From positions 6,885 to 70,884 of the forward strand of contig CAZGUZ010000002.1 of NCBI GenBank assembly GCA_964529025.1: DNA of 64,000 bases. The letters run 5' to 3'. This document shows, piece after piece, positions 7,451-63,735 of the stretch. The translations under genes and the position numbers were made by a program. The notes under the pieces were generated by a model, which worked only from the letters and a program-made list of their open reading frames with translations, made no database searches and was not told the DNA's origin. Source of the stretch: an uncultured Candidatus Saccharibacteria bacterium. Lineage in GTDB: Bacteria > Patescibacteriota > Minisyncoccia > Phycocordibacterales > PALSA-1337. Each line of letters starts with the position of its first letter. The first letter of the stretch is position 1.

Positions 7451-7527
7451 GGCAATATTGTACCATTTAATTCAAAAATTAGCTCTTTTCTTGTTGAAAT
7501 AAAAGCCGTATACTACCACCACACTAA

Positions 7528-33589: not shown

Positions 33590-33625
33590 ACATACAGTAT
33601 AACACCGGCAAAAGCTCAACGGGGC

Positions 33626-34174
33626 TTATTTATTCACATTTTCTGAGCGTGAACACCAGAGTGTTAGCCCAATACCAACTAAAACAATAAGGAGTGCAGC
33701 AAAGTAGGTAATACCAGCAATTTGATCGGTGTACTCAAGGATTCCAAACATAGAAAAAAGAGTGTTCCAGTCATGTTCAACACTATCTCCTCCAAGCAAT
33801 GGCAGCACCATTCTTTGTGCATCACCCATGTATACTGAGACCTCAACCAAACTCTGCCCCATCCACATAATTATAATTCCCGAAGAATAAAATTCGCGCT
33901 TCAGAAAAAAGTATCCTGCAATAACGAGCGGAACAATAACTTGCATTGCTGATCCTGCAATAAAGTGAATAAACTTTCCAAAGAAAGCTGCTAGTGTATG
34001 CCCTGCTTCATGGAAAATAAGATTAACGGTACTTATAATATGAAATTCTTGTGGTGTTTGTATGGCGTATACAATGTATACAATAGCAATAAGTGCGCCG
34101 ATAAGCTTTCCGTAATGGATTCGTGCTGAATACTCTTGTTCTATTGCTCTATATATAAATGAGACGGCATTCAT
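33626..34174 (-). CDS. Small polytopic membrane protein with an HExxH motif (putative membrane metalloprotease-like)
   Basis: Contains IFHEAGHTLAAFFG within hydrophobic helices. The start is assigned to the internal Met (MNAVSF), because the longer GTG-started ORF would place a terminator hairpin at 34222-34243 inside coding sequence. Confidence 0.45.
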   Translation of the reverse strand: MNAVSFIYRAIEQEYSARIHYGKLIGALIAIVYIVYAIQTPQEFHIISTVNLIFHEAGHTLAAFFGKFIHFIAGSAMQVIVPLVIAGYFFLKREFYSSGIIIMWMGQSLVEVSVYMGDAQRMVLPLLGGDSVEHDWNTLFSMFGILEYTDQIAGITYFAALLIVLVGIGLTLWCSRSENVNK

Positions 34175-34207
34175 ATACTTATTATACACGAGGTCGTACC
34201 CCTCGTG

Positions 34208-34243
34208 GTCAGCAAACAAAAAGGCGCCCCCGAAAGGGCGCCT
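34208..34243 (-). terminator. Rho-independent terminator (minus strand) ending the GC-rich unit
   Basis: The minus strand reads aggcgccctttcgggggcgcct followed by ttttgtttg, a 9-bp GC stem with a U-run. Confidence 0.6.
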
Positions 34244-34510
34244 GTGCGATCGCATAATAGCGATCACTGGCCATTTGCTGGATCCTGCGGTGGATCTCCA
34301 GCTTGATCCGTGTCAGAAGGCTGTTCTCTGCAGCCACTTGGACTCCAAGTAACAGTGCCGTCACCGGCACCATTTGCTTCCCCTGAGCGACTCACCCCGA
34401 CAATCACGGGATTACCCCAGGGTGTAACTGGTTGAACAGGAAAATTTTCCATACTGCACTTAGAGTACACCCGCAAATTAAAAGTAGCAACTGTGCACAT
34501 TTAGGTATGA
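34244..34510 (-). ncRNA. Candidate structured RNA / leader (unclassified), or alternatively a 78-aa Pro/Gly/Cys-rich ORF (34264..34500)
   Basis: A ~270-nt segment with locally high GC is bounded by a near-consensus promoter and a strong terminator on the minus strand. It contains several GC hairpins, including GUGCCG-GUGA-CGGCAC with a GNRA loop. No SD precedes the ORF start, which lies only ~10 nt from the predicted TSS. Confidence 0.3.
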
Positions 34511-50716: not shown

Positions 50717-51223
50717 TTATACTTTTCGCTGTATAAGGCGCTCAAGGATACTCGATTCATCAGCATCATCCCTACCAAATCGATGTCGTTGTTCTTTCAT
50801 GATTTCAATGAGTTGCTGTGGTGGCATAAAACGTACCTCACTCAAGGCTTCGATATCATCCTTAGCGCGTAGACTTTCATCAATTGATATAAGATTACAC
50901 AAAAAATATATTGTAGTCTTTTCTATAGAAACATTACCTTTAGGAAAATTGATAACAATAGGGCCAAGGTAATCAACAATTTCTCCGGTTGCACCAAACT
51001 CTTCTCGTAAGCCTCGATAAAGAGTTTCTTCTATTGACTCACCAAGTTCTGGAGTCTCACGCATAAGAATATACAGATCCTTAAATTCCCCCAATGAAGG
51101 ATGTTCAAACTTTTTAAAGTAGTGTACTGCGACTTCGCCCTGAGCATTTTGCATAACTGCACCTATAGAAAGATGATATGGGTGATTCTCTGTGCCTTTG
51201 AAGTAGTTAGTTTTGGGTTTCAT
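50717..51223 (-). CDS. NUDIX hydrolase
   Basis: Nudix box GESIEETLYRGLREEFGATG (GX5EX7REUXEEXGU). Confidence 0.75.
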   Translation of the reverse strand: MKPKTNYFKGTENHPYHLSIGAVMQNAQGEVAVHYFKKFEHPSLGEFKDLYILMRETPELGESIEETLYRGLREEFGATGEIVDYLGPIVINFPKGNVSIEKTTIYFLCNLISIDESLRAKDDIEALSEVRFMPPQQLIEIMKEQRHRFGRDDADESSILERLIQRKV

Positions 51224-51352
51224 ATTTCTATCATATCTCTTTTTGAGACTTTGTTCAAAATTTGTTGGGTGACGAGCTGGCTACTAGCGTTTACAAAAGA
51301 CTAATTATATAGCTCACTCAAGAATATTGCACTAGTTTTACCGTTGTAATCT

Positions 51353-52102
51353 TTACTCATAGTTCCACGTACTTAAGTCAAAGTTGGTGAAATCATAGAA
51401 CTTACTATTTTCAAGATTATACTGACCAAGATATGGGTTGTTTGTTGTAAGTCTAAAAGGATTTTTCTGAAAGAGATATACCAGACCTTTACTTGGAACA
51501 CCCGGATACACCCATAATAGCCACTCCTCCCTTCCTAGAGTATATTCGTTGCGGAGATTAATTTGTTTGTACAGAAGCAAGTAAGCTACTAAGTGCTCTT
51601 CAAGAAAAAAGTTAATTTGGTTTTCACTCTTCTCTCTCTTATAAAATTTAATATCTTCATCGATCCATTTTTGGAAGAGCTCGTCTTTTTTATACAACTT
51701 CCTGAGTTCTCGAAGCTTTCCATCAAAATCTTTAGTGTTTATATAAAGATCGTTCCAGTTTTGATAGGTAAATGCATGCTGAATCTGTAGTTTCTGTTTA
51801 TTCTTCTGCACAAGATTTTGGAGTGCGTTCTTGTGCTTAATTACTTCGATCATGAATCTCTCTTTGAGGATACTCGCTCTATCATCTGATAAAAGATATA
51901 GGAAATCTCCGTAAATAAAATTTAATCCTATCTTTGGCTCCGTTACTTTGTTTATACCAAAATCAAGAATCCACTCAATGCATTTTTGAGCAGACTGACC
52001 GGTGGCAATTCGAGACATAGAGATTGGCATAGCCACCATTCCCCAACCTTTCGGAAATTTGTTTATACCAAAAAACTTGTTCTTTGGAAGTTTATTATTC
52101 AT
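51353..52102 (-). CDS. Hypothetical protein (249 aa), very AT-rich codon usage
   Basis: No recognised motif. It is the first gene of the AT-rich block. Confidence 0.5.
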   Translation of the reverse strand: MNNKLPKNKFFGINKFPKGWGMVAMPISMSRIATGQSAQKCIEWILDFGINKVTEPKIGLNFIYGDFLYLLSDDRASILKERFMIEVIKHKNALQNLVQKNKQKLQIQHAFTYQNWNDLYINTKDFDGKLRELRKLYKKDELFQKWIDEDIKFYKREKSENQINFFLEEHLVAYLLLYKQINLRNEYTLGREEWLLWVYPGVPSKGLVYLFQKNPFRLTTNNPYLGQYNLENSKFYDFTNFDLSTWNYE

Positions 52103-52166
52103 GGAGGCAATAGTATCAGAGAATCCCGAACTTGCTAAGTTAAAAGGGTGATCTAATCCACTCTAC

Positions 52167-52670
52167 TCACAAACCCTTCATCGCTGTCTCAAGAATTAAT
52201 GTATCTCGTTCTTTAATTAATTTGCCACCATAGTCATCCGTAGCACTACCTGAAACAAGTTTGAGTGCTTCTGTAATATCGACCCAGACTGGTTGTTCAA
52301 AGCCTTGAGTCATTTCGCGTTCTGTAAGAGTTGTTTCTTTTCTATCGCCGACTATCTTGCCGATATAACAGTATGAAGTTTGAATTACTGAATACCCTGC
52401 TCTATACTCAATAATTTTTCCTAACTCTGAAATAACTTCTACGTCAGAACCGATTTCTTCCATACATTCTCTACGGAAAGCTGCGATTCTATCCTCACCT
52501 TCTTCTATACCTCCTCCGGGTAATTTATAGTATTGATATTTTGAGACATGCAAAATAGCGACCTTATTGTTTGAATCAAAAACTACACCTCGAGATGCTG
52601 AGCGAGGTTTGTATGTATGAGCAACTTCATCGCTCACTTTGTCTGGATTTATGATTCTAAGAATTTGCAT
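52167..52670 (-). CDS. NUDIX hydrolase (second)
   Basis: Nudix box GGGIEEGEDRIAAFRRECMEEIG. Confidence 0.75.
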   Translation of the reverse strand: MQILRIINPDKVSDEVAHTYKPRSASRGVVFDSNNKVAILHVSKYQYYKLPGGGIEEGEDRIAAFRRECMEEIGSDVEVISELGKIIEYRAGYSVIQTSYCYIGKIVGDRKETTLTEREMTQGFEQPVWVDITEALKLVSGSATDDYGGKLIKERDTLILETAMKGL

Positions 52671-52725
52671 TTTTGTTAAGTTAGTTGATTAGCTGCCCCA
52701 CACAAAACTGAGACTAATTTAAAAA

Positions 52726-53493
52726 CTAATTTATTATCTTAGAGATAAAACTATGCAATTCTGGGTTTGCAGCAAGCATTGTTGTATCTTTAAATGTCCA
52801 GGGTTTGCCTGTTGTGGCTGTTATTTTACAGCCAGATTCTTCGAGGATAAGCGAAGGTGCTGCATGATCCCATAATTCTCCTCCATTTGTGGCAAACCAA
52901 TCCCTTCTTCCAGTTGCAACATAGAGTGTATTAATCCCCATACCATAGAAACTTGTTGTAGACACCTTACCTGTTGAACTTGCATTGAGCATCTTTTGAA
53001 GCTTAACGATATCATCAGATCTTAGATTACCGCTGTAGCATCCTACGGTATTATCAAGAGACTTCATCTGTGTGCATGTAACTCTTTCATTGTTCAAATA
53101 GGCACCCGCACCTCTTTTTGCATAGCAAAGTTCGTCGTGTATTGGATCGTATATCACCGCCAATTCAACAACTCCCGCTTTTGCTCGTGCTATTAAAACT
53201 GTGTATAAAGGAATACTTTTTGAAAAGTTGAGTGTTCCATCGAGTGGATCAATTATCCAAACGTACTCGGCATCTGTATTTGATTCTCCGGTTTCCTCAG
53301 AAATGATTCCGTCCTGAGGAAATTCTTTTTTGATTGATTCGGTAATAAATTTATTAGAAGCAAGATCTGCTTGTGTTACTACATCGAGTGCATGCTCTTT
53401 AATATATTGAACTTCGGCTTTCTTAAAAAATTCGAGAGTAATCTTACCTGCTTGTTTTGCTATATCCTGAATGAATTGTTCTGGATTTGTCAT
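52726..53493 (-). CDS. Inositol-monophosphatase-family phosphatase (SuhB/CysQ-like)
   Basis: Contains ISEETGE...WIIDPLDGTLNF, the IMPase/FBPase metal-binding signature. Confidence 0.8.
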   Translation of the reverse strand: MTNPEQFIQDIAKQAGKITLEFFKKAEVQYIKEHALDVVTQADLASNKFITESIKKEFPQDGIISEETGESNTDAEYVWIIDPLDGTLNFSKSIPLYTVLIARAKAGVVELAVIYDPIHDELCYAKRGAGAYLNNERVTCTQMKSLDNTVGCYSGNLRSDDIVKLQKMLNASSTGKVSTTSFYGMGINTLYVATGRRDWFATNGGELWDHAAPSLILEESGCKITATTGKPWTFKDTTMLAANPELHSFISKIIN

Positions 53494-53656
53494 AGAGTAA
53501 CGTTATCATATTTGAAGAAAAATGACATAGTAAAACCCAGACCGAATTGTCTGGGTTGAAGTTATGTGCCCACACGCCAATACCCTAATCCAGACAAAAA
53601 AACGCGTCGGAGGAATCCGACGCGCTGTTCGTGGGTTGGTGATGAGGATGGGCATT

Positions 53657-54214
53657 TTATAATATTTTGAACTCGTATTCGGACAGATGAAGCTCTTCCA
53701 AATCACAACCGACATCATCTAGTTTGTCTTTATACTCTTCTTTGTAATGTGGAATAATTTTGAATGGCAAAATACCGAGCCCCTCAAAGACACCATCTGC
53801 GTGTGGGCTGTAAAAATACTTACACCAGACATTTGCCCCAGCTGATTCTCCTGCAACCACTTTACCCTGAAGATATTTGTGAAGTTCTGGGTACTTCTTT
53901 AATGCACCGAGAAGCTTTAAGCTTACACCGCCATGGAAATAAATAATATCTGCATTTTTGACCTGATCGACAAAATGATCTTCGTTCGCGGTCTCAATAA
54001 AGATTTCCCTATCACCTTTCACACTATTGAATTCAGTAGTTACCTTTTCAATCGCACGGGGTATACGATCAGAATCTTTGGCAAATGGCACAAGTAGTAG
54101 GCGCTTACCCTGAGAATCGGCTTTTAAAATTGTCGAGTAAAAATCACTGTTATCTCTTCCTTTTTCTTCTGTATTAAATCCTCCATGGAGGATAAAAGTA
54201 ATATCCTTATTCAT
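53657..54214 (-). CDS. Peptidase S51-like (dipeptidase E / class I glutamine-amidotransferase-like fold)
   Basis: Contains the GESAGA nucleophile elbow, an upstream HGG and a fold-typical length. Assignment is tentative. Confidence 0.5.
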   Translation of the reverse strand: MNKDITFILHGGFNTEEKGRDNSDFYSTILKADSQGKRLLLVPFAKDSDRIPRAIEKVTTEFNSVKGDREIFIETANEDHFVDQVKNADIIYFHGGVSLKLLGALKKYPELHKYLQGKVVAGESAGANVWCKYFYSPHADGVFEGLGILPFKIIPHYKEEYKDKLDDVGCDLEELHLSEYEFKIL

Positions 54215-54244
54215 GTATTATTCTATAATCTAAATCGTCCTGGT

Positions 54245-54847
54245 CTAACCCAAAAACTTATCTGGAAAATTTCCTGACTGTTCCCAAGCAAATTTATGTC
54301 TTTCCTTAAAAGCGACCTTTACTTCTGGTAAAACAATCTTTCTCTCCCAATCTTTCTTTAGTTTATTTCTGTTTGATTCCATTAATTCTGGAATAGATTT
54401 CTTATTATTTTCCTTAAAATAAATTGACCAGAATGGACCGATAAGATGAGATGCGGCATCAGCAGAAGAAACAATTTTTACTTCAATTGGGGCTTCGTTA
54501 AGATCGATTTCCATCTTTTTTTCAAAGATAGCAAGATATGTAATTACTTTATCAACAAAGCCTTCATTCAATCCGATCTCAAGTAATTTTGTGCGTCCCT
54601 CTTCAAACATCTTCTCATCATGTTCATTGTCCTTATCTAGAATTTTGGCATAATCATGAATCCAGACCAAAGCCATTACTACATCTCTGTCGGCATCTTT
54701 ATAAATATCACATAGTTCAAAAGAGATCCTCTCGACAAAATTCAAATGGAGATCGACAAACCAGTCATGGTGAATAAACGTAGGATTTTTTGTTGCGTCA
54801 ATCACATGATTCTTAAACTGCCCTAAAAGCTTAGTGTTTGATGGCAT
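54245..54847 (-). CDS. HD-domain-like phosphohydrolase
   Basis: His/Asp pairs (IHHD...LVWIHDYAK...D) are spaced as in HD hydrolases. Confidence 0.45.
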   Translation of the reverse strand: MPSNTKLLGQFKNHVIDATKNPTFIHHDWFVDLHLNFVERISFELCDIYKDADRDVVMALVWIHDYAKILDKDNEHDEKMFEEGRTKLLEIGLNEGFVDKVITYLAIFEKKMEIDLNEAPIEVKIVSSADAASHLIGPFWSIYFKENNKKSIPELMESNRNKLKKDWERKIVLPEVKVAFKERHKFAWEQSGNFPDKFLG

Positions 54848-54952
54848 ATATCAATATTAACTTAATTTTCTTTATTGTCATACCAAATCGGTGGTGTTCA
54901 ATAATCTAGAAATTTATACGTAACGCTCTGTAAGTATATTTATAGCCATGAT

Positions 54953-56002
54953 TTAGGCTTTAGGATTCAAGAGATCTCTGTTTTTCTTCAAATACTCCTG
55001 AATAACAGCTATTCTCTCGGGTCGATTTGTTGTGTGCCAGCGTGGGATTCGCCCATGGCTACTCACAATGATAGCTGCATGGAGAACACTTCGATCAAAA
55101 TCTTTTTCTCCGAAATAACCCTTTATCATCTGCTCTGCCGCCTCTTCTGAATTATAGTGCGAGACTGCTATGATAATTGCCAAACCAAGATCTAAGATAG
55201 GATGATTAAAAGCTGGAGTTGGATCAAAAATAGTTAATGGTTCTGTAGCAAATACATTGTATGCTGAAAAATCATTGTGGCAGTATGTACTTCGCTTATC
55301 ATGAGCTGCTTGCTGTTTGATTATTTCAATAGCCTGATCAATTGATCCATGATCTGAATCATTAAGAAGTCGGTGTTCTTGAGTGTATTTAAGTCTCTTT
55401 GAAATATGCATTGGAAACCATTCGGAGAAAGTTTTGTAATCAGGTTTACCATTATGCACGGGTCCGTAACCGTCGACATTTCTTGTATGCATCTTTGCGA
55501 GGAGAGATCCAAGTGAATGGAATATATTCCGTGACAGCATTTCTTCCAAAGAATATGTTTGACCTAGAATTGGTGCATCGACATACTTCATAAGTGTATA
55601 TGGTCTATCACCCACATAACCCTCTTCTACTATATGTGGTACTGATACTCCATCTTCTTCCCAGGTTTTGAGAAAGGCCCCTTCTCCTTCTATGGGCTTA
55701 GGTAAAAGTGTTATCTTGAGTACGTACTTATTTTCTTCTGCATTAATGATTGATACGAGAGAAGTTTGGCCGGCTTGAGCGAATGTGATTTCTACTTCTT
55801 TGTCTTTAAAAAGTTTGTGGCTGGAAATGAAATCACTGATTTTTGGAACGAGTTCTTTTTTTATTTGATTGCGGCTTTCGTCAACGCTGTGTTCAGAGAG
55901 TTTTGGTTTGTTGAGAAAGGTTGGGTTTTTCATTTGTTTATTATATCTCGTTTTTGGGGTTGTGGGGGGGTGGAAATTTGTGCTGACACACTTAACTCTC
56001 AC
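54953..56002 (-). CDS. Aminoglycoside-phosphotransferase-like / choline-kinase-like small-molecule kinase
   Basis: Brenner motif CHNDFSAYN (HxDxxxxN) plus a downstream IFDPT...D metal-binding Asp. The real start may be MKNPTF. Confidence 0.65.
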   Translation of the reverse strand: MRVKCVSTNFHPPTTPKTRYNKQMKNPTFLNKPKLSEHSVDESRNQIKKELVPKISDFISSHKLFKDKEVEITFAQAGQTSLVSIINAEENKYVLKITLLPKPIEGEGAFLKTWEEDGVSVPHIVEEGYVGDRPYTLMKYVDAPILGQTYSLEEMLSRNIFHSLGSLLAKMHTRNVDGYGPVHNGKPDYKTFSEWFPMHISKRLKYTQEHRLLNDSDHGSIDQAIEIIKQQAAHDKRSTYCHNDFSAYNVFATEPLTIFDPTPAFNHPILDLGLAIIIAVSHYNSEEAAEQMIKGYFGEKDFDRSVLHAAIIVSSHGRIPRWHTTNRPERIAVIQEYLKKNRDLLNPKA

Positions 56003-56590
56003 CTATTCTTCAATGATTTTCACAATTTTGAGAGCTGGATAATCATCTTTATTCTCAAATGACTTTCTGTAGTATTCGTTCCAGTAGCTCGTCATTCGCG
56101 ATTTTGTCTTTTCCCAAAAGATGGGATTATCAGTAATAAATTTCTTATACAGAGCTTTATCTTTTTCAACAGCTCCTTTTGTCATCTCGACTATTTCTAT
56201 AACGTATTCCCCTAGCAACATAACGACAAAAGGCACTGTCCAAGGTGTCTCGTTCTCGAGGATTTTCTTCAAATGCTTTTGGCGAACGAAACCATCGTGG
56301 TGTCTTGTATATATACAGCTTAAAACTAACTGCTGTGTAGCGGTAAGACTACTGGTAGCAGAACTATCAGGCTCAGGGTTATATATTCTTGAGTAAATTC
56401 GAATCGAATCAGACTCTACAGAGAGAGTTTCTTCTGTCTTATGTGGAAGATGTTTGCTTTTGGGAATAAGCATAGCCACAACCTCCACATCTGAATTAAG
56501 GGTTGATGGAAACATTTCAAAAAATGCTTCGGACTCTTGTTTTGTTTTCTTGAGCAGATTAAACATATGAAACATTATATCTCTTATCAA
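56003..56590 (-). CDS. Hypothetical protein (195 aa), translationally coupled to the kinase gene
   Basis: There is zero gap to the downstream kinase ORF. No motif was recognised. Confidence 0.45.
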   Translation of the reverse strand: MIRDIMFHMFNLLKKTKQESEAFFEMFPSTLNSDVEVVAMLIPKSKHLPHKTEETLSVESDSIRIYSRIYNPEPDSSATSSLTATQQLVLSCIYTRHHDGFVRQKHLKKILENETPWTVPFVVMLLGEYVIEIVEMTKGAVEKDKALYKKFITDNPIFWEKTKSRMTSYWNEYYRKSFENKDDYPALKIVKIIEE

Positions 56591-56675
56591 GATTTTTACT
56601 ACATTGAATATATTTGGAGAACTGTACTGAGCAAAATTATGCGCTTTGGCAGCCAGACCTTTCTTGTGTTATTTA

Positions 56676-57779
56676 CTAAGGGTACTGAAACAAATTATTC
56701 AAATCAAGTATCCTTCCTATACTTTCTGCACGACCTGTTTCTACGAATGTAGGTATACCCAAAACGCAACCGGAATCCTTGACTGCTATTCCACCAGAAT
56801 TTCCATGCTCTATTTTTGCGGAGGTTTTTATATACCTCACCCCATTATCATCTTCAAAGCCAGAGATTATACCATCCGTAACAGTAAGAGATGAACCACC
56901 AACTCCAGGATATCCTAAAACAGATAAGTGGTCCCCGATACTTACAGACTTACAATAAGTAGTTAAATTTTTACTTTTAGCATATTTTGCTAAATCATTC
57001 TTGTTGCCAGCACGCGCTGTGTTTATGATCTGGGGAAAGATATAAGCAAAATCTGTACCGTACTTATATATTTGGTATCCAGAGGACTTATATACTAAGT
57101 AATTATCGGTCTCACGATAATTTGGATACAGGATCACAGCGCACTGCGATGTCGATCCATCTGATGTTTCAACAACGTGAAGATTGGTCTCTATAAAATA
57201 TGCTGATGGATCGTTTGATGGAGAATAATAAAGGAGACCGGACCCGACCTGCAAGTTGTCACCGTAGGCATCTGAGGCACACACCACCTTCACAACAGCT
57301 GAAGATAACGACGACAGCAAGTTACTTATATTCCCAGAAGGGTTTTGCCTTGTATTCGAATTAATGTCAGCTTCGAGCCTTTGAATTTGAGTATCTTTCT
57401 TGCTTAACTCTTTTTCTTGAGTAGTAAGTCGCTGAGTCGTTGAAGAGGCCATATCCAGTAATTTTGCCTGTGTTTCTTGTAATTGCTTTGAAGTTTGCAG
57501 AATCACTGATTGAGTTTTTTTATATGATTCATACAGGTGTTGCCAAGCGAGAATTGCAGATACTGCGAGTAAAACAGCTAGAATAATTCCCCCTATCACT
57601 AATGGGCTAGTTTTTTTAGTCTGTTTGACTTTTCTCATTGTCAAAGACACGTACGTCGAGACTCTTTTTACTAATGTATTCTGAAGAAAAAAACTATTGT
57701 TATGGACTTCTTTTCCACAATTGTCACAAAAATTATGCCCCTCATCAATTTCCATGCCGCAGTTACTACAAAAAACCAT
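56676..57779 (-). CDS. Zinc-ribbon / TM / coiled-coil / trypsin-like (S1) serine protease fusion protein
   Basis: The N-terminus carries CSNCG...CDNCG, a 4-Cys zinc ribbon. A single TM helix and a Q/E-rich coiled coil follow. The C-terminal domain has GNSGGIAV (the GDSGG-type catalytic Ser motif) and an upstream His/Asp. Confidence 0.6.
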   Translation of the reverse strand: MVFCSNCGMEIDEGHNFCDNCGKEVHNNSFFLQNTLVKRVSTYVSLTMRKVKQTKKTSPLVIGGIILAVLLAVSAILAWQHLYESYKKTQSVILQTSKQLQETQAKLLDMASSTTQRLTTQEKELSKKDTQIQRLEADINSNTRQNPSGNISNLLSSLSSAVVKVVCASDAYGDNLQVGSGLLYYSPSNDPSAYFIETNLHVVETSDGSTSQCAVILYPNYRETDNYLVYKSSGYQIYKYGTDFAYIFPQIINTARAGNKNDLAKYAKSKNLTTYCKSVSIGDHLSVLGYPGVGGSSLTVTDGIISGFEDDNGVRYIKTSAKIEHGNSGGIAVKDSGCVLGIPTFVETGRAESIGRILDLNNLFQYP

Positions 57780-57784
57780 ACTAT

Positions 57785-58870
57785 TTATACAGATAAAAGA
57801 AAACTTTTTACTCTATCATTATAAATTTTATAATATTCAAGACTACTTTGTGCAGAAGAATTGTAATCTTTCAAGTAATACTCCATTGATTTACAGAGGT
57901 AGTTGGCGGCATAGTACAAATCGTCTGCAGCATTTACGTAAGTAGACGGCATGCCTGTGAATCTGTCATTTAGTTCTAAAGCATCACTTTGCGCCGTACT
58001 ACATGCTGAAATTGCGGCTCCGAGATACAGGTTGGCAGAGTTATACTCACCATCATTCCAATCTGTTATCCCTTTTAATGCATTACCGAGTCCGTTTGAA
58101 GTAAGATTATTGTATATAGTCGTCAATTGACTGACAAAAGATTTTGCGACCTCTAGCGAACGAGCCGCAGATGCTTTTGATTGAGCATCGATTGCTGCTT
58201 GTTGTGCATTTTGCTCAGCTCTAACCTTTGCGGCTTGAGCAGCCGCTGCTGCTGCCTTATTCTTTTCTGCCTGTGCCGCAGCTACTACAGCCTCTCTCTT
58301 ACTTGTGTTTACCTCACCTTCAAGCACAAGTACAAGACTATCCTGTACTTTTTTTATTTCGGCTTGAACATTTTCATATTCTGGGTAACTCGAATCTATT
58401 GATTGAAGTTCGCTGAGAGCTTTCTTTAAACTGCCAGATGAAGTGGTTGTTGCTGTTGAAGTAGCATTTTGGATTGCAACAGCATTGTCGAACGATGTCT
58501 TGAAAGAAATAAATTTTAGACCGTCAGACCTTATAGTATCTATTCTGGATTTTTGACTTTCTGATATTTTTTTATTTTCTAACTGGAGCAAAGTGTTGAT
58601 TGACTCCTTGTAGTTACCAGTCGATTGCAATTCTTTTGCTGAGTTTATTTTTGACTCAACTAAATAATACGCATATCCCTTTGATCCACCGTAAACTAGA
58701 CCGCCTAAGAATATTAAAATTACTATCGTCAATACGATTGGGCTTCTCCAGGTGAGCTTAAAAGAATACTTTGCAGTAACTTGTCGAGATAATTCTAGCA
58801 AATCACTTCCGCAAGACCGACAGAACCTACTACCTGAACGATTTTCCTTGCCACATTGATCGCAATGCAT
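57785..58870 (-). CDS. Zinc-ribbon / TM / Ala-rich coiled-coil extracytoplasmic protein
   Basis: The N-terminus carries CDQCG...CRSCG, followed by a TM helix and a long Ala/Gln-rich helical region. The architecture parallels the neighbouring protease fusion. Confidence 0.5.
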   Translation of the reverse strand: MHCDQCGKENRSGSRFCRSCGSDLLELSRQVTAKYSFKLTWRSPIVLTIVILIFLGGLVYGGSKGYAYYLVESKINSAKELQSTGNYKESINTLLQLENKKISESQKSRIDTIRSDGLKFISFKTSFDNAVAIQNATSTATTTSSGSLKKALSELQSIDSSYPEYENVQAEIKKVQDSLVLVLEGEVNTSKREAVVAAAQAEKNKAAAAAAQAAKVRAEQNAQQAAIDAQSKASAARSLEVAKSFVSQLTTIYNNLTSNGLGNALKGITDWNDGEYNSANLYLGAAISACSTAQSDALELNDRFTGMPSTYVNAADDLYYAANYLCKSMEYYLKDYNSSAQSSLEYYKIYNDRVKSFLLSV

Positions 58871-59248
58871 TTTAGTTAAATTAATCTTAACACTAATAAT
58901 AATTTATTAAAAAGTTCAAAACTCGCCATAGAAACCTTACTTGTTTCCTATCAGCCTAGATAAATTAGATGATAGATTCTTTACTCTTTGTCCAAATTTT
59001 ATCTACACCTTCAATCTACTTGCCATTCTAGGTTGTATGTTAGTTATCCTTTATATAAAATACCACACTAATGTGTATTCTAAAAAAAATCCACATTCAT
59101 CAATACCTTAACTATCACTATTTTATCTTACTTTCATATTTTACCATATAAGTATTTTTAGTTGTTTTAATTTTATCTTCTGACATCGGGTAAGTATTAA
59201 AGTACACGTCTGGATATTTGATAGTCAGATTCATGCTCACTAACGCTT

Positions 59249-59869
59249 CTACATGTTTAATTCAAGATATCCCCATGACAATAAGATTATCGCGATTATA
59301 AACGAAATCACAAAAAAGATATTAAGGGATTTGAGTATTTTAAAATCAAGTTGCCTATTTTTTGCTTCTTGCCTCTCCTTTACAGCTGCCTTCAACTCAT
59401 CCTTTTGCGCAAAATAATTTTCTATTTCAGATATAATCTCTTTGTCTAATTTTTGATCTTGTTTTCTTTTGATCGCCGATAATTTATTACAAATACTGAT
59501 TGCACCTTGCTGAAATTTGACTAATAATTCCCTCTCCCACTTATCATCACTCAATATAGACTTCTTATCTCTTTCAATAACCATGGCGAGAATAACTATT
59601 CCACAGAGAGTAGTCAGAATAAAAAATACTACAGTTAGTATCAATACGCGAGAATGACCAATTTGAATAGTTGGTGCAACAACTGTTAGAAATGCAACGC
59701 TAATTGACGACAGTGCGAGAACAAGATTAAATCCTCTATCTGCATTTCTGTATTGTAAATCTGCAGTCTTCTGAGATAAGCTAATTAATTGTTGAGTCCA
59801 ATTATCCGAGGTTTCAGAAAAAACTGCTATTAGGTTATCCAATTCATTTGAAATCATTTTTACATGCAT
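59249..59869 (-). CDS. Hypothetical membrane protein (3 TM)
   Basis: Hydrophobic segments with charged coiled linkers. The ORF abuts the next gene with no gap. Confidence 0.45.
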   Translation of the reverse strand: MHVKMISNELDNLIAVFSETSDNWTQQLISLSQKTADLQYRNADRGFNLVLALSSISVAFLTVVAPTIQIGHSRVLILTVVFFILTTLCGIVILAMVIERDKKSILSDDKWERELLVKFQQGAISICNKLSAIKRKQDQKLDKEIISEIENYFAQKDELKAAVKERQEAKNRQLDFKILKSLNIFFVISFIIAIILLSWGYLELNM

Positions 59870-60547
59870 TTAGCCTCTTAATCTACTTAAAGCAACTTTA
59901 GTTGCTTCTCGACGTAATTCAGTTAGAGTATTTATTCCCAATATTTCTCTTATTATTTCGACTACTTCTTCTATTGCCATTTTAGACTCCTCATCATTCT
60001 CACTTTTTGTATGTCCCAAAACAAGACCTAGTAATCTATAAACTCTTTTGACTGTATCATCTCTTTCTTTGCCAAAACCTTGATAATCTAAAAGATTTTC
60101 TTTTGCACCCATTTCAATTAAAGCAGTTTCAATTGGTCTTAATTCACCTTCAATCTTTTTTGTAAGCCATGCTGAATGTTTTTGGCGTATATTTACCAAT
60201 TCCCTACCTATATTCATTAAATTCTTAGAAGCACCGTCTCTATATATTTCCTGTAGTCCTTTTTGCAATCTATCTACGTATTCTTCACAAAACAATGCGT
60301 GTTTGTCATAAGCAACTTTAGCCATATGAGAAGCTGTTCCTAAAATAAAGTCTTGTTGTTCATTTTGCAATTGTTCATCCTTCCACGTTTTATAAAGAGA
60401 AAGACACAAAGCTCCAATCCCGGGTATAGCTGCAATACCTTTAAAGACCTTGTCTATAGGAAGATAGTATGCGGATAAAAAAGAGGCGGCTAATACAATT
60501 ATTAGCAATATATAAGTTGACCAATTTTTAATTTTAATATTTTTCAC
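59870..60547 (-). CDS. Hypothetical protein with N-terminal TM anchor
   Basis: The ORF fills the interval with a single N-terminal TM. No motif was recognised. Confidence 0.45.
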   Translation of the reverse strand: MKNIKIKNWSTYILLIIVLAASFLSAYYLPIDKVFKGIAAIPGIGALCLSLYKTWKDEQLQNEQQDFILGTASHMAKVAYDKHALFCEEYVDRLQKGLQEIYRDGASKNLMNIGRELVNIRQKHSAWLTKKIEGELRPIETALIEMGAKENLLDYQGFGKERDDTVKRVYRLLGLVLGHTKSENDEESKMAIEEVVEIIREILGINTLTELRREATKVALSRLRG

Positions 60548-60577
60548 ATCTTTCTTTAACTAGTTCAAACAGATTAC

Positions 60578-60692
60578 GGGGCTTGGACTCGCCCTCGCCT
60601 CTCATCTCGCCGTCGCTCGATTCGGGCTGGGCACCGCCTCGCAGTTCGCCGTACTCGGCTCACATAGCTCCGGCGTTCTCGTCATCATACCC
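60578..60692. repeat. Direct repeat copy 2 (~115 bp, GC-rich) beginning with a 15-nt copy of the tRNA-Gln 3' end
   Basis: The sequence cggggcttggactcgccctcgcctctcatctcgccgtcgctcgattcgggctgggcaccgcctcgcagttcgccgtactcggctcacatagctccggcgttctcgtcatcataccc matches 61588..61702 with one mismatch. Its first 15 nt are the reverse complement of CGAGTCCAAGCCCCG from the tRNA T-arm/acceptor 3' side. Confidence 0.8.
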
Positions 60693-60834
60693 TCAGTATA
60701 GCGCACAACAAGAAACCCGCTATAGGTGGGATTTTGTGGACCAAATGAGACATCTGCACTAAAACCGTAATCGTCCAACCCTAACCTACTCCGTCTGGCT
60801 TATTTTTAACTCACCGAACGACCCGTTTCGTGCA

Positions 60835-61524
60835 CTAGGAAATCTTGCCATTAATATAATCTTTTACTGCTTTTATAACACTCACGACCTCTTCTCCAAA
60901 TTTATCTTCCTTATCATTGAGCCAATCGCCCTGATTGTACATGATATTATGTATTTCCATGTAGTCCTTGGTTCTAATTTTTGGCTGGAAATTCTGCTTT
61001 AAGGCAATATTTAAATCTGTTATCTTTACATAAAGAGGTTTGACTATTTGCCTAACTTCAGGCCCCCACAACACCTCAGCTTCAAGTAAATTTGATTCCA
61101 TTTCGGTAGACGCATTCGTGATTTCCTCCCACCTCATCTCATATACATATGGATGAACGTTCTTCTCCAATTCCTCTTTGAGTTTATCTGGATACTTTGT
61201 CCTTGCATATTGAATCGCTCTATAATCCTCCGAAGGAAATATGGCTGGATTCCTGACGTGCTTTATTGCATCCCTAAGTTTTAGGAGAGATAGATGTAAA
61301 TTATCAGCAACTTCACTTTTGATTTGCTTTCTCCATGTAAACAAACCGCCACTAGCAATATAAAGACCCGTCACCGTTAATATCAATGTTACCCAATCGT
61401 TTAAAAAAGGATAAACTGGGTGAACAAAAAACGCAGGGTAAAGGCGGTAAAAAACTAGTCCGGAGATGGATACAGCGAGGATCCAGAAAAATACTCCCTT
61501 AACGCTAACACTGTCTTTCACCAT
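60835..61524 (-). CDS. Hypothetical 2-TM membrane protein flanked by the two direct repeats
   Basis: The ORF has two N-terminal TM helices and an AT-rich composition. It is the only gene between the repeat copies. Confidence 0.5.
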   Translation of the reverse strand: MVKDSVSVKGVFFWILAVSISGLVFYRLYPAFFVHPVYPFLNDWVTLILTVTGLYIASGGLFTWRKQIKSEVADNLHLSLLKLRDAIKHVRNPAIFPSEDYRAIQYARTKYPDKLKEELEKNVHPYVYEMRWEEITNASTEMESNLLEAEVLWGPEVRQIVKPLYVKITDLNIALKQNFQPKIRTKDYMEIHNIMYNQGDWLNDKEDKFGEEVVSVIKAVKDYINGKIS

Positions 61525-61587
61525 GAGATTGATTATTACTACTTCCTACAGCTTTACTAATTGATACACCTCGTACAACTTGGCGGC

Positions 61588-61702
61588 GGGGCTTGGACTC
61601 GCCCTCGCCTCTCATCTCGCCGTCGCTCGATTCGGGCTGGGCACCGCCTCGCAGTTCGCCGTACTCGACTCACATAGCTCCGGCGTTCTCGTCATCATAC
61701 CC
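61588..61702. repeat. Direct repeat copy 1 (~115 bp) with the tRNA-Gln 3'-end core
   Basis: Near-identical to 60578..60692. The shared 15-nt core with the adjacent tRNA gene suggests an att-like junction. Confidence 0.8.
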
Positions 61703-61705
61703 CGC

Positions 61706-61751
61706 TTTCAGAATGAATAAAAGAGATACGCTTTGCGCATCTCTTTTATTC
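61706..61751 (-). terminator. Long perfect hairpin immediately 3' of tRNA-Gln (tRNA terminator)
   Basis: The minus strand reads aatgaataaaagagatgcgcaaagcgtatctcttttattcatt, a ~17-bp stem. Confidence 0.5.
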
Positions 61752-61755
61752 ATTA

Positions 61756-61826
61756 GCTGCGGGGCTTGGACTCGAACCAAGATTCTACGCTCCAGAGGCG
61801 CATGTCCTACCATTAGACGATCCCGC
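61756..61826 (-). tRNA. tRNA-Gln (anticodon CUG)
   Basis: The reverse complement UGCGGGAUCGUCUAAUGGUAGGACAUGCGCCUCUGGAGCGUAGAAUCUUGGUUCGAGUCCAAGCCCCGCAG folds as a cloverleaf. It has U1-A72 and discriminator G (bacterial tRNA-Gln identity), U8, a GG in the D-loop, anticodon loop CU-CUG-GA with U33, a 5-bp T-stem CUUGG/CCAAG and a UUCGAGU T-loop. CCA is not encoded, and there is one A-C mismatch at the base of the acceptor stem. Confidence 0.8.
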
Positions 61827-61920
61827 AAAATTTTGTTATGCCTTATTACTGTACTCGCTATAACAATGTGCCACAAATAATACCTTAAAATGGGGTAAAA
61901 AGGAAGAGTGCGCCAAGTCT

Positions 61921-63735
61921 TTGTTTGCGCTACTATTGTGCCACATATATGACTCTTGTATGGTAACTTTTAACTTCTCTTCTTGTTTGCACGGTGCGTC
62001 GAAACTGTTCTCTTGGTTTGCTCGTCATTGGCTTGCTGGTGTTATTGCTCTATGTGTGGGTATTGTGTGTATTGCTCCTCAAATTGTTTTTATTACGCAT
62101 ATGGGGAGTGGGTATTCGGGTATTTATATTTTGAAGAGTGATGCTGAAACTCATTATCTTGCCCGTATGAAAAACTCTGCTGAGGGTAATGGTATTGGTA
62201 ATCCTTTTTTTCGTGAGTATTCGCATGAGCCTTCTGCTACGTGGAGTTTTTCTGAGTGGTTTCTTGCTCTGCCGAGTGCTGTTGTGCCGATATCGGTGCC
62301 GAGTTTGAGTCTTATCTATAAGTTTGTTTTTCCTTTTATTGCTACGCTCTGTGCTTATGCTTGTTTTTTTATTATTACGCGGAATTATTTATGGTCGGCT
62401 ATTGGTAGCTCTGCTGTAGTTATTGGATCTGCTTTGGTGAATACTGCTGATGTTATGAATCTTCTTTCGTGGAGTCAGACGTATTCTCAGTTTCTTGCGT
62501 ATTCTAGGCCGGTGAATCCGCAGTTCTCGGGTATTATTTTCTTTATTTATATTGTGAGTATTCTGTATGCTCTGAGGCAAAAAACGCGGTGGGCTTTTAT
62601 TCGTGTTGCTCTTATTTCGACGCTTTCGTGGTATGTGTATTTTTATACTGCTACCTTTATTCTTGCTACTAATTGTATTATTGCTCTGGGTTATACGGTG
62701 CGCTTTGTATTGAGGGCGTATCCTCAGTATGTGCCAAAAAGGTTTGTGTCATTTGTATATTCACTGCTCTATGGTATTGAGGGAGTTGAAAGTGATTCGT
62801 CGTTTAATTTGTTGTTGAATTCACCCTTACTTGAAACTGTACATAAGGCTCGGGCGACTATGTTATATGCCTTAGCGGCGCTTGTACTCAGTATTATTGG
62901 TGGTTTGCCTTTTATATGGGCTACTTATATGCTCCGCATGAGCGAATGGTATGAGGAGCTTGCTCGTATTGCTCATATTGTTACTTCGCACGCTCCGGTT
63001 ATGAGTAGTTCTTGGTTCATTACGGCAATTATTGTTGTGTTCACCGTGGTGATCTATCGGCGTTTTCATGGTGCGCATATGTACCCTGGTTATACTCGCT
63101 TTTTTATTATTCTGCTTCTTGCAACGCAGCTCGCTATTAATCAGCAAGTTATTACGGGCATTGTGCTTCAGCAGGGTCACTATCATTGGTATATGAATGC
63201 TCCGCTCTTTGTACTCATGATTTGGGTATGTATATATTCGCTCATTGAGCTTATTTCTACGAATTCAGTGCGCACAACATTATTCAAGAAAGTGAGTTTA
63301 TACGGTACAGCACTTATGTGTTGCGGAGTAGTATTTACTTACGGTTTTTTGGTACAGAGTTCATCATATTATGCTCGCAAAGACGAAACGGCTTTTGCTC
63401 AGCGCTATGCATCTGTTCTTGATTGGCTTAAAGCATATACGCAACCTGGATCTACGGTTCTTGCTCACAATGATATTTCTGAGCTCATTCCTATTTACAC
63501 CGACAATAATGTAGCGTGGGAAAATCATGCCACCTACTATTTAATGCCGCATTCGCGCCGTGAATTTACTCCCGAAAATATTCTACAGAGCCCTGCTCCG
63601 CATGATATTGTAAAAAACTATCCTCTTGATTATATAATTCAAGATTCTGCCAAGCCTTTTAGCCTTCCCAAGACTTTCCCTATTCGCACCGTAACTCAAT
63701 TTGGAGATTTTACGGTTTACACAGTAGAGCGCTAA
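61921..63735 (+). CDS. Large polytopic membrane protein (>12 TM; possibly GT-C-type glycosyltransferase / YfhO-like)
   Basis: A 604-aa protein, hydrophobic throughout with extracytoplasmic loops. Family assignment is tentative. Confidence 0.5.

What the first reader, a model, noticed from the sequence alone, without database searches (positions are those of the whole stretch)
60570..61830. tRNA-Gln(CUG) followed by two 115-bp direct repeats that each start with a 15-nt copy of the tRNA 3' end (att-like, possibly tandem)
The tRNA on the minus strand (~61756-61826) ends with ...CGAGUCCAAGCCCCGCAG. The same 15 nt CGAGTCCAAGCCCCG (as the reverse complement cggggcttggactcg on the plus strand) opens two near-identical 115-bp GC-rich repeats at ~61588 and ~60578. 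The two copies differ at one base and bracket a single 2-TM protein gene. A core shared between a tRNA 3' end and downstream direct repeats is the classic footprint of tyrosine-integrase-mediated insertion into tRNA genes. In a tandem-insertion model, junctions P-core-P' and P-core-B' share exactly the arm-plus-core, which fits the two identical copies. No integrase is present in the window, so this may be a decayed or satellite-type element, or a different duplication mechanism.
Basis: seen in the sequence. Interest (0 to 1): 0.75.

Follow-up and report, generated by a model that had tools for sequence, protein, structure and literature searches.

The report
tRNA-linked structured repeat in Patescibacteria
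The two repeats after tRNA-Gln are copies of a previously undescribed, folded, non-coding ~90-base module that in several Patescibacteria always sits fused to a leftover 3' piece of a nearby tRNA, most likely the footprint of small insertions into the tRNA T-loop.

Summary
In detail: tRNA-Gln(CUG) at 61756-61827(-), and two 116-nt copies (61587-61702, 60577-60692; one mismatch) that each end with the tRNA's 15 nt CGAGTCCAAGCCCCG. No recombinase lies anywhere in the window.

The 100-nt GC-rich arm ("X") is not a private att arm. Homologous X modules (73-86% identical) occur on three other Patescibacteria contigs. Each is fused at the same T-loop position to the 3' piece of a different tRNA. Where the contig allows, the intact tRNA lies 50-60 nt upstream. 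X has a covariation-supported fold on the tRNA strand and matches no Rfam family.

Relatives have tRNA-Gln followed directly by the inter-repeat gene, or by a CBASS cyclase, with no X. So X is a gained insertion, and the bracketed gene is more likely an old neighbour than cargo.

Best reading (about 0.45): small non-autonomous modules that recombine with tRNA T-loops through an enzyme acting in trans, leaving the displaced tRNA 3' end behind X. Rivals are a tRNA-linked small RNA gene, ordinary decayed att scars, and local duplication. Only four loci could be sampled, and the mechanism is inferred.

The parts
61756..61827 (-). tRNA-Gln(CUG), intact, no encoded CCA
   Evidence: ARAGORN; Rfam RF00005, 50.8 bits. 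Identical in sequence to the tRNA-Gln of relative L010.
61760..61774 (-). Core copy 1: CGAGTCCAAGCCCCG inside the tRNA (3' part of the T-loop, T-stem 3' strand, acceptor 3' strand)
   Evidence: Exact 15-mer, three copies in the window against 0.02 expected.
61712..61754 (.). 20-bp A+T-rich hairpin directly after the tRNA
   Evidence: Inverted repeat I2, 95% complementary, 3-nt loop. The homologous position in L033 and L028 holds hairpins that start inside the tRNA acceptor 3' strand.
61699..61705 (-). GCGGGGU, the 5' strand that pairs with GCCCCGC of core copy 2 and closes the module
   Evidence: RNAfold MFE of the module, z = -2.9 and -3.3. On its own this 6-nt complement is not significant.
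61587..61702 (-). Repeat copy A: X module plus core copy 2
   Evidence: the repeat finder D1; covariance model R1 hit at 61594-61690, 114.7 bits.
61600..61685 (-). X proper in copy A: a 5' domain (P1, P1a, P2 with tandem G.A) and a 3' domain (P3-P6)
   Evidence: Alignment A4 and the named structure: 26 pairs, 96.9% paired, 7 pairs with compensatory changes, 0 of 500 shuffles reach this.
61580..61601 (-). Core copy 2, extended: 20 of 22 nt identical to the tRNA 3' end plus 6 nt of trailer (a displaced or duplicated tRNA 3' end)
   Evidence: D2, 91%.
60835..61524 (-). 229-aa protein between the repeats: two TM helices plus a helical bundle, function unknown
   Evidence: ORF. No Pfam, PADLOC or NCBIfam family. 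AlphaFold2 pLDDT 89, no significant PDB fold match. 128 homologs at E <= 0.001; the few sources that name them say Patescibacteria/Parcubacteria groups. Orthologs directly follow tRNA-Gln(CTG) in L041/L042 and a tRNA 3' end in L004.
60577..60692 (-). Repeat copy B: X module plus core copy 3. Its outer closing stem is incomplete.
   Evidence: the repeat finder D1; R1 hit at 60584-60680, 116 bits. The only difference from copy A turns a U.G pair into C-G in helix P2.
60577..60591 (-). Core copy 3: 15 nt only; the last 3 nt of the tRNA are absent
59870..60547 (-). Next gene (225 aa, TM protein, no family), starting 29 nt after core copy 3. It opens a lower-GC, unannotatable stretch running down to about 51 kb.
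61921..63735 (+). 604-aa membrane protein on the other side of the tRNA: the conserved flank used to find the nearest relative, L010

Best explanation
The repeats are two copies of a roughly 90-nt GC-rich structured non-coding module (X), each with a 15-nt 3' piece of tRNA-Gln attached.

Shown:
- X is a family present on at least four Patescibacteria contigs.
- In every copy X ends at the same place, ...GGG(C/A)GA | N59 of a T-loop, and runs straight into the 3' part of a tRNA.
- In three loci the intact cognate tRNA (Gln, Tyr, one unidentified) lies 50-60 nt upstream.
- X has a conserved fold on the tRNA strand.
- The sequence left of X is an inverted copy of the tRNA T-loop-to-3'-end.
- Relatives of the window organism have the same tRNA-Gln locus without X.

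Inferred:
- X is the constant end of small (about 150-190 nt) non-autonomous insertion modules that recombine site-specifically with the T-loop of tRNA genes.
- The incoming module supplies a fresh tRNA 3' end plus a hairpin, so the tRNA stays intact. The old 3' end is left behind X.
- In the window one such module (173 nt, 61774 to 61602) lies between the tRNA and the 229-aa gene.
- The second X-plus-fragment after that gene is either the junction of an older tandem insertion or a secondary copy of the first.
- The recombinase is encoded elsewhere and acts in trans.
- Because the fold is strand-specific and kept by compensatory changes, the site is probably read as a folded single strand, as with integron attC or IS200/IS605 ends, or is also made as RNA.
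For: - X homologs were found with a 20-mer scan of genome contigs: L028 and L033, both Patescibacteria MAGs; every hit of the parallel metagenome scan was a chance match. A protein-trick search found L044.
- Junction anatomy was read directly: W GGGCGA|GTCCAAGCCCCG; L033 GGGCGA|ATCCCTC next to tRNA-Tyr 7405-7489; L028 GGGAGA|TTCCCGGTAGGGTCA next to a tRNA 3' half; L044 GGGCGA|TTTCC... twice.
- Arrays of such junctions occur in L028 and L033.
- Covariation: 7 of 26 pairs are compensatory, 96.9% of cells are paired, 0 of 500 shuffles reach this, and slid controls give 29-49%. The only A/B difference preserves a pair.
- Fold z-score is -2.9 on the tRNA strand and 0 on the other strand.
- Whole modules close through flank and tRNA fragment, z = -4.4, -3.3 and -2.2.
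- Inverted repeats link the tRNA T-loop-to-3'-end with the left flank of X: L033, 25 nt at 80% plus a 24-nt 96% hairpin; L028, GTTCGATTCC/GGAATCGAAC at 100%.
- Presence/absence: L010 has an identical tRNA-Gln followed by a CBASS cyclase. L041/L042 (tRNA-Gln) and L004 (a tRNA 3' end) are followed directly by the 229-aa ortholog. None has X.
- X is 73-86% identical across hosts of 41-54% GC.
Against: - No recombinase or transposase was found in the window or in the limited DNA held for L028, L033 and L044.
- No excised form, empty site within the same population, or extrachromosomal copy was seen. X is absent from IMG/VR, phage and plasmid collections.
- A module must carry a 3' end matching each target tRNA. 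How it would be re-tailored when it moves to a new tRNA is unexplained.
- Copy B lacks the hairpin and inverted-flank part, and the gene before it looks ancestral. The tandem-insertion account of copy B is therefore weak.
- Only four loci were sampled.
- L044 shows no intact tRNA on its 1.6 kb.
Confidence: 0.45

Rival explanations
1. X modules are small RNA genes linked to tRNA genes. The RNA consists of the X domains closed by a helix that mimics the acceptor/T minihelix of the neighbouring tRNA. tRNA-processing enzymes (RNase P, RNase Z, the CCA-adding enzyme) would then cut it out and stabilise it. Copies spread and stay matched to the tRNA by local recombination or gene conversion. This does not exclude mobility.
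For: - The covariation is strand-specific, with G.U pairs and tandem G.A on the tRNA strand.
- The flanks close the fold in three lineages with three different tRNA fragments.
- In L033 the 5' closing strand is a perfect Watson-Crick complement where the real tRNA has a G.U pair.
- One L044 copy ends in ...CCACCA followed by a terminator-like hairpin.
- High GC in A+T-rich genomes is typical of structural RNAs.
Against: - A terminator-like hairpin separates the tRNA from X in L033, and no promoter-like site precedes X in the window, L033, L028 or L044.
- The left flank copies even the loop nucleotides in inverted form: AATCGAA is the reverse complement of TTCGATT. That looks like a DNA-level inverted duplication rather than tRNA mimicry.
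- The closing-helix complement is not individually significant.
- Window copy B has only a 3-4 bp outer stem.
- There are no expression data.
- Homologous X next to different tRNAs still requires transposition.
Confidence: 0.25
2. These are ordinary decayed att scars. Large integrase-bearing elements of one family inserted twice into tRNA-Gln and were later almost completely deleted. X is merely their attP arm and has no role of its own.
For: - Direct repeats of the tRNA 3' end start in the T-loop, and the tRNA is intact.
- The region downstream of the tRNA is variable and of lower GC, with defence-type genes in relatives.
- Partial-tRNA arrays and degenerate elements are well known at island tRNAs (tycheposon preprint 10.1101/2020.12.28.424599).
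Against: - The same compact architecture (tRNA 3' end, hairpin, inverted flank, X, tRNA fragment; 150-190 nt) recurs in L028 (twice), L033 and the window. Independent random deletions would not give this.
- Compensatory changes keep X folded.
- No integrase remnant was found in any locus.
- No X was found on viral, phage or plasmid records.
Confidence: 0.15
3. This is a purely local duplication by unequal crossing-over or replication slippage on the short tRNA homology. It would resemble the 178-bp tRNA-linked repeats after E. coli tyrT. No mobile element is involved.
For: - The two window copies are 99% identical and 1010 nt apart on the same strand.
- The E. coli tyrT repeats likewise each contain the tRNA's terminal 19 nt (own knowledge: Egan and Landy 1978; Rfam RtT RNA).
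Against: - It cannot explain homologous X next to different tRNAs in other genomes.
- It cannot explain the absence of X from the closest tRNA-Gln loci.
- The identity between copies A and B stops inside the tRNA-like stretch and at the edge of the folded unit, not at arbitrary points.
Confidence: 0.08

Closest known systems
Genomic islands and integrative elements at tRNA/tmRNA genes with partial-tRNA direct repeats (for example Prochlorococcus tycheposons and Dehalococcoides ssrA islands)
   Same: - An intact tRNA is followed by one or more copies of its 3' part, starting in the T-loop.
- Serial junctions are pushed away from the tRNA.
- A variable, defence-rich region lies downstream.
- Integrase-less remnants occur (PMC3146451 listed, title and abstract only).
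   Different: - The units here are 150-190 nt with no gene, or one gene.
- No integrase is present in any locus.
- The element-side arm is a conserved folded module with covariation.
- An inverted copy of the tRNA end lies on the other side of that module.
Integron cassette arrays and attC sites
   Same: - A roughly 100-nt recombination-site-like element is defined more by fold than by sequence and is read on one strand.
- It sits at the 3' end of very small units, some without an ORF, arrayed after one fixed site.
- Copies within one genome are nearly identical, like Vibrio VCRs (own knowledge).
   Different: - There is no IntI, no attI and no Pc.
- X is not a single imperfect hairpin with R/L boxes (GTTRRRY).
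- The fixed site is a tRNA T-loop.
- Each unit carries a tRNA 3' end.
E. coli tyrT tRNA-linked 178-bp repeats / RtT RNA (Rfam RF00391)
   Same: Repeated non-coding units lie downstream of a tRNA gene. Each contains the terminal segment of that tRNA, and an RNA is released from the tRNA transcript (own knowledge).
   Different: - There is no sequence or structure match: cmscan at E <= 10 found nothing.
- X is shared between genomes and between different tRNAs.
- The inverted-flank architecture is absent from the E. coli repeats.
IS200/IS605-derived palindrome-associated elements (PATEs) and other ssDNA-read elements
   Same: - Small non-coding units with strand-specific terminal hairpins.
- Both junctions follow a similar tetranucleotide: TCGA on the left, GCGA or GAGA on the right.
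- No clear target-site duplication if the junctions are read that way.
   Different: - No TnpA (Y1) was found.
- The target is embedded in a locus-specific inverted copy of a tRNA end, which this family does not generate.
Group I introns in Patescibacteria tRNA genes
   Same: Structured, GC-rich insertions associated with tRNA genes of the same phylum (PMC13011429).
   Different: - Those introns lie in the anticodon loop (35/36), are far longer, and interrupt the tRNA.
- Here the tRNA is intact, X is about 90 nt, and no Intron_gpI match was found.

Membership tests
Integrase-mediated insertion into a tRNA gene (att sites) | Direct repeats identical to the tRNA 3' part flank the inserted DNA, and the tRNA is reconstituted | tested here: met
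   Three copies of the 15-mer, with the first inside an intact tRNA-Gln.
Integrase-mediated insertion into a tRNA gene (att sites) | A tyrosine or serine recombinase gene lies in or next to the element | tested here: not met
   No recombinase, transposase or integrase Pfam hit in any window ORF of at least 110 aa. None is visible in L028, L033 or L044.
Integrase-mediated insertion into a tRNA gene (att sites) | The unoccupied site exists in relatives | tested here: met
   L010 has an identical tRNA-Gln with no X. L041/L042 (tRNA-Gln) and L004 (a tRNA 3' end at the contig start) have no X. These are different species, not the same population.
Integrase-mediated insertion into a tRNA gene (att sites) | The DNA between the repeats is foreign cargo | tested here: inconclusive
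   The 229-aa gene follows tRNA-Gln(CTG) in L041/L042 and a tRNA 3' end in L004, where the tRNA sequences have diverged. This argues for an old neighbour. L010 lacks the gene. Flank alignments are not significant.
Integron (attC cassette array) | IntI integrase with attI and Pc next to the array | tested here: not met
   No integrase in the window.
Integron (attC cassette array) | attC is a single imperfect palindrome with R''/L''-L'/R' boxes and a GTTRRRY core | tested here: not met
   X folds into two multi-helix domains, not one hairpin, and has no GTTRRRY ends.
RtT RNA / E. coli tRNA-linked repeats | The repeat unit downstream of a tRNA contains that tRNA's terminal segment | tested here: met
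RtT RNA / E. coli tRNA-linked repeats | Match to the Rfam RF00391 covariance model | tested here: not met
   cmscan at E <= 10 over the window, L033 and L028 modules lists no RtT hit.
IS200/IS605-type PATE | Y1 transposase (TnpA) available, and conserved subterminal hairpins with guide/cleavage tetranucleotides | tested here: inconclusive
   Hairpin domains lie near both ends, and both junctions follow (T/G)(C/A)GA. No TnpA is in the window. Guide pairing was not tested.
MITE | Element-specific terminal inverted repeats that are the same in all copies, plus a fixed-length target-site duplication | tested here: not met
   The inverted flanks differ by locus and match the local tRNA. The repeated tRNA pieces vary from 9 to 19 nt or more.
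Group I intron in a tRNA gene | Interrupts the tRNA and matches the Intron_gpI model | tested here: not met
   The tRNA is intact. No intron model hit was found. X is about 90 nt.
Diversity-generating retroelement (TR/VR pair) | Reverse transcriptase nearby, VR at the 3' end of a target gene, and adenine-specific differences | tested here: not met
   No RT in the window. Both copies are intergenic. They differ at one base only.
Casposon-type insertion at a tRNA 3' end | Fixed 14-15 bp target duplication, terminal inverted repeats and Cas1 | tested here: not met
   The 15 nt in the window fits. In L028 and L033, however, the repeated pieces are 9, 10, 17 and 19 nt, all starting at the same T-loop position. 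No Cas1 was found.
tmRNA / known tRNA-like RNAs | Detected by ARAGORN or by the Rfam tmRNA, YrlA or mascRNA models | tested here: not met
   ARAGORN finds only the tRNA. Rfam gives nothing on X.

The most novel reading that the evidence does not exclude
X modules are a new class of structure-defined, protein-less mobile units of Patescibacteria that home to the T-loop of tRNA genes. Each unit brings a replacement tRNA 3' end and an inverted copy of the target. Together these fold with X into a tRNA-minihelix-like single-stranded site. In effect this would be an integron-like or ssDNA-transposon-like system that uses tRNA genes as its docking site. It may also yield a tRNA-processed small RNA. 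The recombinase would be an unrecognised or distant enzyme.
Probability: 0.25. Interest if true: 0.8.

Novelty: new variant of a known kind. Interest (0 to 1): 0.58.

Why it matters
Patescibacteria have tiny genomes, and little is known about how they gain and lose genes.

- A conserved folded module that marks junctions at tRNA T-loops would give a sequence handle for finding insertion hot spots in thousands of MAGs.
- It could also lead to the enzyme that works on it.
- If X is instead an RNA, it is a new phylum-specific structured RNA family, absent from Rfam 15, that borrows a tRNA end.
- Such repeats break short-read assemblies at tRNA loci (contigs L002, L003, L004 and L042 end in or at them). 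This matters for MAG quality.

Tried and rejected
- **Known RNA families.** Rfam at gathering and at E <= 10 on the window, L033 and L028 found only tRNA and chance hairpin hits.
- **tmRNA.** None found.
- **Group I intron, DGR, casposon, MITE, integron.** Each fails a defining feature (see the membership tests).
- **Extra copies in the window.** nhmmer, blastn-short and covariance model R1 find only the two copies.
- **Further tRNA-Gln fragments.** None at up to 3 mismatches.
- **Viral, phage and plasmid origin.** Five IMG/VR pattern scans gave nothing or chance hits in GC-rich coding DNA. INPHARED and PLSDB blastn gave no match. The 229-aa gene is not on IMG/VR contigs.
- **Chance hits in the 20-mer scans.** Most genome and metagenome hits lie in GC-rich genes.
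- **Six-frame peptide trick with the search for homologous proteins.** No hits. The same idea with the representative library gave L044 plus one false positive, P0144.
- **Closing-helix test.** The longest perfect complement between flank and tRNA fragment is not significant per module. I rely instead on the whole-module folds and the inverted repeats.
- **Native-flank identification.** Aligning tRNA trailers and spacers with relatives gave nothing significant by shuffling. An earlier MAFFT impression of about 100 nt of downstream homology is withdrawn.
- **NUDIX orthology across the island.** None.
- **The three small TM proteins as paralogs.** They are not.
- **The 229-aa protein as a hidden recombinase.** The AlphaFold2 model is a membrane-anchored helical bundle with no significant PDB match.
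- **Literature.** Searches found no description of such modules.
Full report
**1. Observation**

ARAGORN and Rfam agree on one tRNA in the window, tRNA-Gln(CUG) at 61756-61827 on the minus strand. A 116-nt direct repeat lies at 60577-60692 (copy B) and 61587-61702 (copy A), with a single mismatch at 60658 g versus 61668 a.

Read on the tRNA strand, each copy ends with CGAGTCCAAGCCCCG. This 15-mer is also the 3' part of the T-loop, the T-stem 3' strand and the acceptor 3' strand of the tRNA. It occurs three times in 64 kb against 0.02 expected.

Copy A matches the tRNA end and trailer over 20 of 22 nt (D2). The repeats are about 70% GC in a 41% GC window. Three other assemblies of the same organism show the same sequence.

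**2. Layout on the tRNA strand**

The order is:
- tRNA-Gln;
- a 20-bp hairpin (61754-61712);
- GCGGGGU;
- X (about 90 nt) plus core 2 (copy A);
- 62 nt;
- a 229-aa gene (61524-60835);
- 142 nt;
- X plus core 3 (copy B);
- 29 nt;
- a 225-aa gene.

No ORF of at least 110 aa anywhere in the window matches an integrase, resolvase or transposase family.

**3. X is a family, not a private arm**

Scans of public genome and metagenome contigs with a 20-mer from X returned mostly chance hits in GC-rich coding DNA. Two Patescibacteria MAG contigs showed extended similarity: L028 and L033.

A search of protein representatives with a spurious ORF that runs through X found a fourth contig, L044, which carries two copies.

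- In L033, X lies after tRNA-Tyr (7405-7489) and ends ...GGGCGA|ATCCCTC, which is the tRNA-Tyr T-loop and T-stem.
- In L028, X lies after a tRNA whose 3' half is at the contig end, and ends ...GGGAGA|TTCCCGGTAGGGTCA, which is that tRNA's end.
- In L044 both copies end in tRNA-like 3' pieces, one with CCA.
- L028 and L033 hold further short GC-rich pieces that again end in the local tRNA fragment.

X is 73-86% identical between hosts whose loci have 41-54% GC. A covariance model built from five copies finds only these copies in 182 kb of held Patescibacteria DNA. No Rfam 15 family matches X.

**4. X is folded**

On the tRNA strand the module folds better than shuffles (z = -2.9). On the other strand it does not (z = 0).

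RNAalifold on three sequences and a hand-checked structure on five give 26 pairs in two domains. Of the cells, 96.9% are paired. Seven pairs carry changes on both sides:
- P1: CGCC/GGCG becomes CAGC/GCUG.
- P2: several changes.
- P5: AUC/GAU becomes GGC/GCC.

None of 500 column shuffles reaches these values, and slid controls drop to 29-49% paired. The only difference between window copies A and B turns a U.G pair into C-G.

Five sequences are few, and the 3' domain is mostly invariant. The fold is therefore supported but not fully resolved.

**5. The flanks**

In L033 and L028 the sequence left of X is an inverted copy of the tRNA T-loop-to-3'-end.
- L033: 25 nt at 80%.
- L028: GTTCGATTCC/GGAATCGAAC at 100%.

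The tRNA's acceptor 3' strand is also part of a long hairpin with the following sequence: 24 nt at 96% in L033, and 12-15 nt in L028. A 9-bp hairpin with a tetraloop is inserted between the two inverted pieces in three modules.

As a result, flank and tRNA fragment close X into one unit. Whole-module folds give z = -4.4, -3.3 and -2.2. In the window the inverted flank is degenerate: GCGGGGUAUGAUGAC pairs with GUCCAAGCCCCGC, and copy B has only part of it.

A crude test of the longest perfect complement is not significant for single modules. The inverted copy includes the loop nucleotides (AATCGAA for TTCGATT). This points to a DNA-level inverted duplication, or to a requirement for a continuous helix, rather than to simple tRNA mimicry.

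**6. Relatives**

- L010 is the nearest relative by the flanking 604-aa gene (60% identity). It has an identical tRNA-Gln followed after 57 nt by a CBASS oligonucleotide cyclase, with no X.
- L041/L042 and L004 carry orthologs of the 229-aa gene (72-73% amino-acid identity, 76-80% nucleotide identity).
- In L041/L042 the gene starts about 100 nt after a tRNA-Gln(CTG). In L004 it starts 70-80 nt after a tRNA 3' end of tRNA-Gln type at the contig start.
- None of these has X or a downstream tRNA fragment within the DNA available.

The 173-nt piece between the tRNA T-loop and core 2 is therefore an insertion relative to these genomes.

The tRNA sequences differ among these lineages while the gene order is kept. 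The 229-aa gene is thus more likely an old neighbour than cargo. L010's lack of it keeps the tandem-cargo model alive. Attempts to identify the native flank by alignment were not significant.

**7. Interpretation**

*Best supported (0.45).* X is the constant end of small non-autonomous modules that recombine with tRNA T-loops. These modules carry a replacement tRNA 3' end plus a hairpin and leave the displaced 3' end behind X. The enzyme acts in trans.

*Shown:* the family, the fixed junction, the fold, the inverted flanks, and presence/absence among relatives.

*Inferred:* mobility by site-specific recombination, single-strand recognition, and the origin of copy B.

*Unexplained:*
- how a module acquires the ends of a new tRNA;
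- what made the inverted flank;
- why copy B lacks the hairpin part.

*Rivals:*
- a tRNA-linked small RNA gene (0.25; not exclusive with mobility);
- ordinary decayed att scars (0.15);
- purely local duplication (0.08).

**8. Comparison with known systems**

The geometry is that of tRNA-targeting islands with partial-tRNA repeats, such as tycheposons. No integrase is present, however, and the arm is a folded conserved module.

It resembles integron attC arrays and IS200/IS605 PATEs in being structure-defined and strand-specific. It fails their defining features.

It also resembles the E. coli tyrT tRNA-linked repeats (own knowledge) but does not match RtT.

The group I introns reported in Patescibacteria tRNA genes lie in the anticodon loop and are unrelated.

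**9. The inter-repeat protein and its surroundings**

The 229-aa protein has two TM helices and a helical bundle (pLDDT 89) with no significant PDB match. It matches no Pfam, PADLOC or NCBIfam family. Its homologs lie right after restriction-modification systems in other Patescibacteria.

The stretch from about 51 to 61.7 kb has lower GC and several unannotatable membrane proteins.

**10. Verdict**

The added value is a new structured module family tied to tRNA T-loop junctions in Patescibacteria. The sample is small (four loci) and the mechanism is unproven, so interest is moderate to good.

Noticed in passing
L002 (Logan SRR10036058), equivalent to window 60577-61616: This 1040-nt contig has identical first and last 30 nt. 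It is a 1010-nt cycle through X+core and the 229-aa gene. That is expected from a de Bruijn graph with identical repeats, so it is not evidence of a circular molecule. In that sample the two copies carry the copy-A base.
   Followed up: partly
window 51000-61700: This stretch has lower GC (0.32-0.39 against about 0.41-0.45). It holds three small TM proteins without any family (229, 225 and 206 aa), two zinc-ribbon membrane proteins (one with a trypsin-like protease), an APH-type kinase, an HD protein, a peptidase S51 and NUDIX genes. It may be a variable island downstream of tRNA-Gln.
   Followed up: partly
L010 2-211 (minus strand): In the nearest relative, the gene directly after the identical tRNA-Gln is a CBASS oligonucleotide cyclase (PADLOC E = 5e-27). 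The position after tRNA-Gln is a variable, defence-type spot.
   Followed up: partly
L005 3355-6597; L008 2171-6609; L009 306-4744: Homologs of the 229-aa protein lie immediately after restriction-modification genes (XamI plus an Eco57I-type methylase; a type IIG/ISP enzyme). They are also near a transposase, a large serine recombinase or a DGR. The family may be defence-associated.
   Followed up: no
L033 7666-7800; L028 2860-3010: Further short GC-rich pieces end in ...TGTGAC followed by the local tRNA 3' fragment. They share a GUUUUGCG-AGYA-CGCAAAAC hairpin. This is a second junction type, seen only in these two loci.
   Followed up: partly
L044 69-165 (-) and 263-363 (+): Two X copies in divergent orientation lie on a 1.6-kb contig with no tRNA gene. 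The plus-strand copy keeps the 3' domain and P1 but has a different hairpin in place of P2. It ends in ...CCACCA followed by a terminator-like hairpin.
   Followed up: partly
window 2981-3240: A 72% GC stretch lies inside the N-terminal part of the RNase J ORF (2951-4972), upstream of its metallo-beta-lactamase domain.
   Followed up: no
window 26597-33619 (minus strand): A 2340-aa protein carries GH43, Ig-like, chitobiase-C and peptidoglycan-binding domains. The two neighbouring ORFs (33626-34267 and 23766-24404) have no family.
   Followed up: no
window 9036-10067: A 343-aa ORF in the only 1-kb bin with 53% GC. It has no Pfam family at E <= 1e-5.
   Followed up: no
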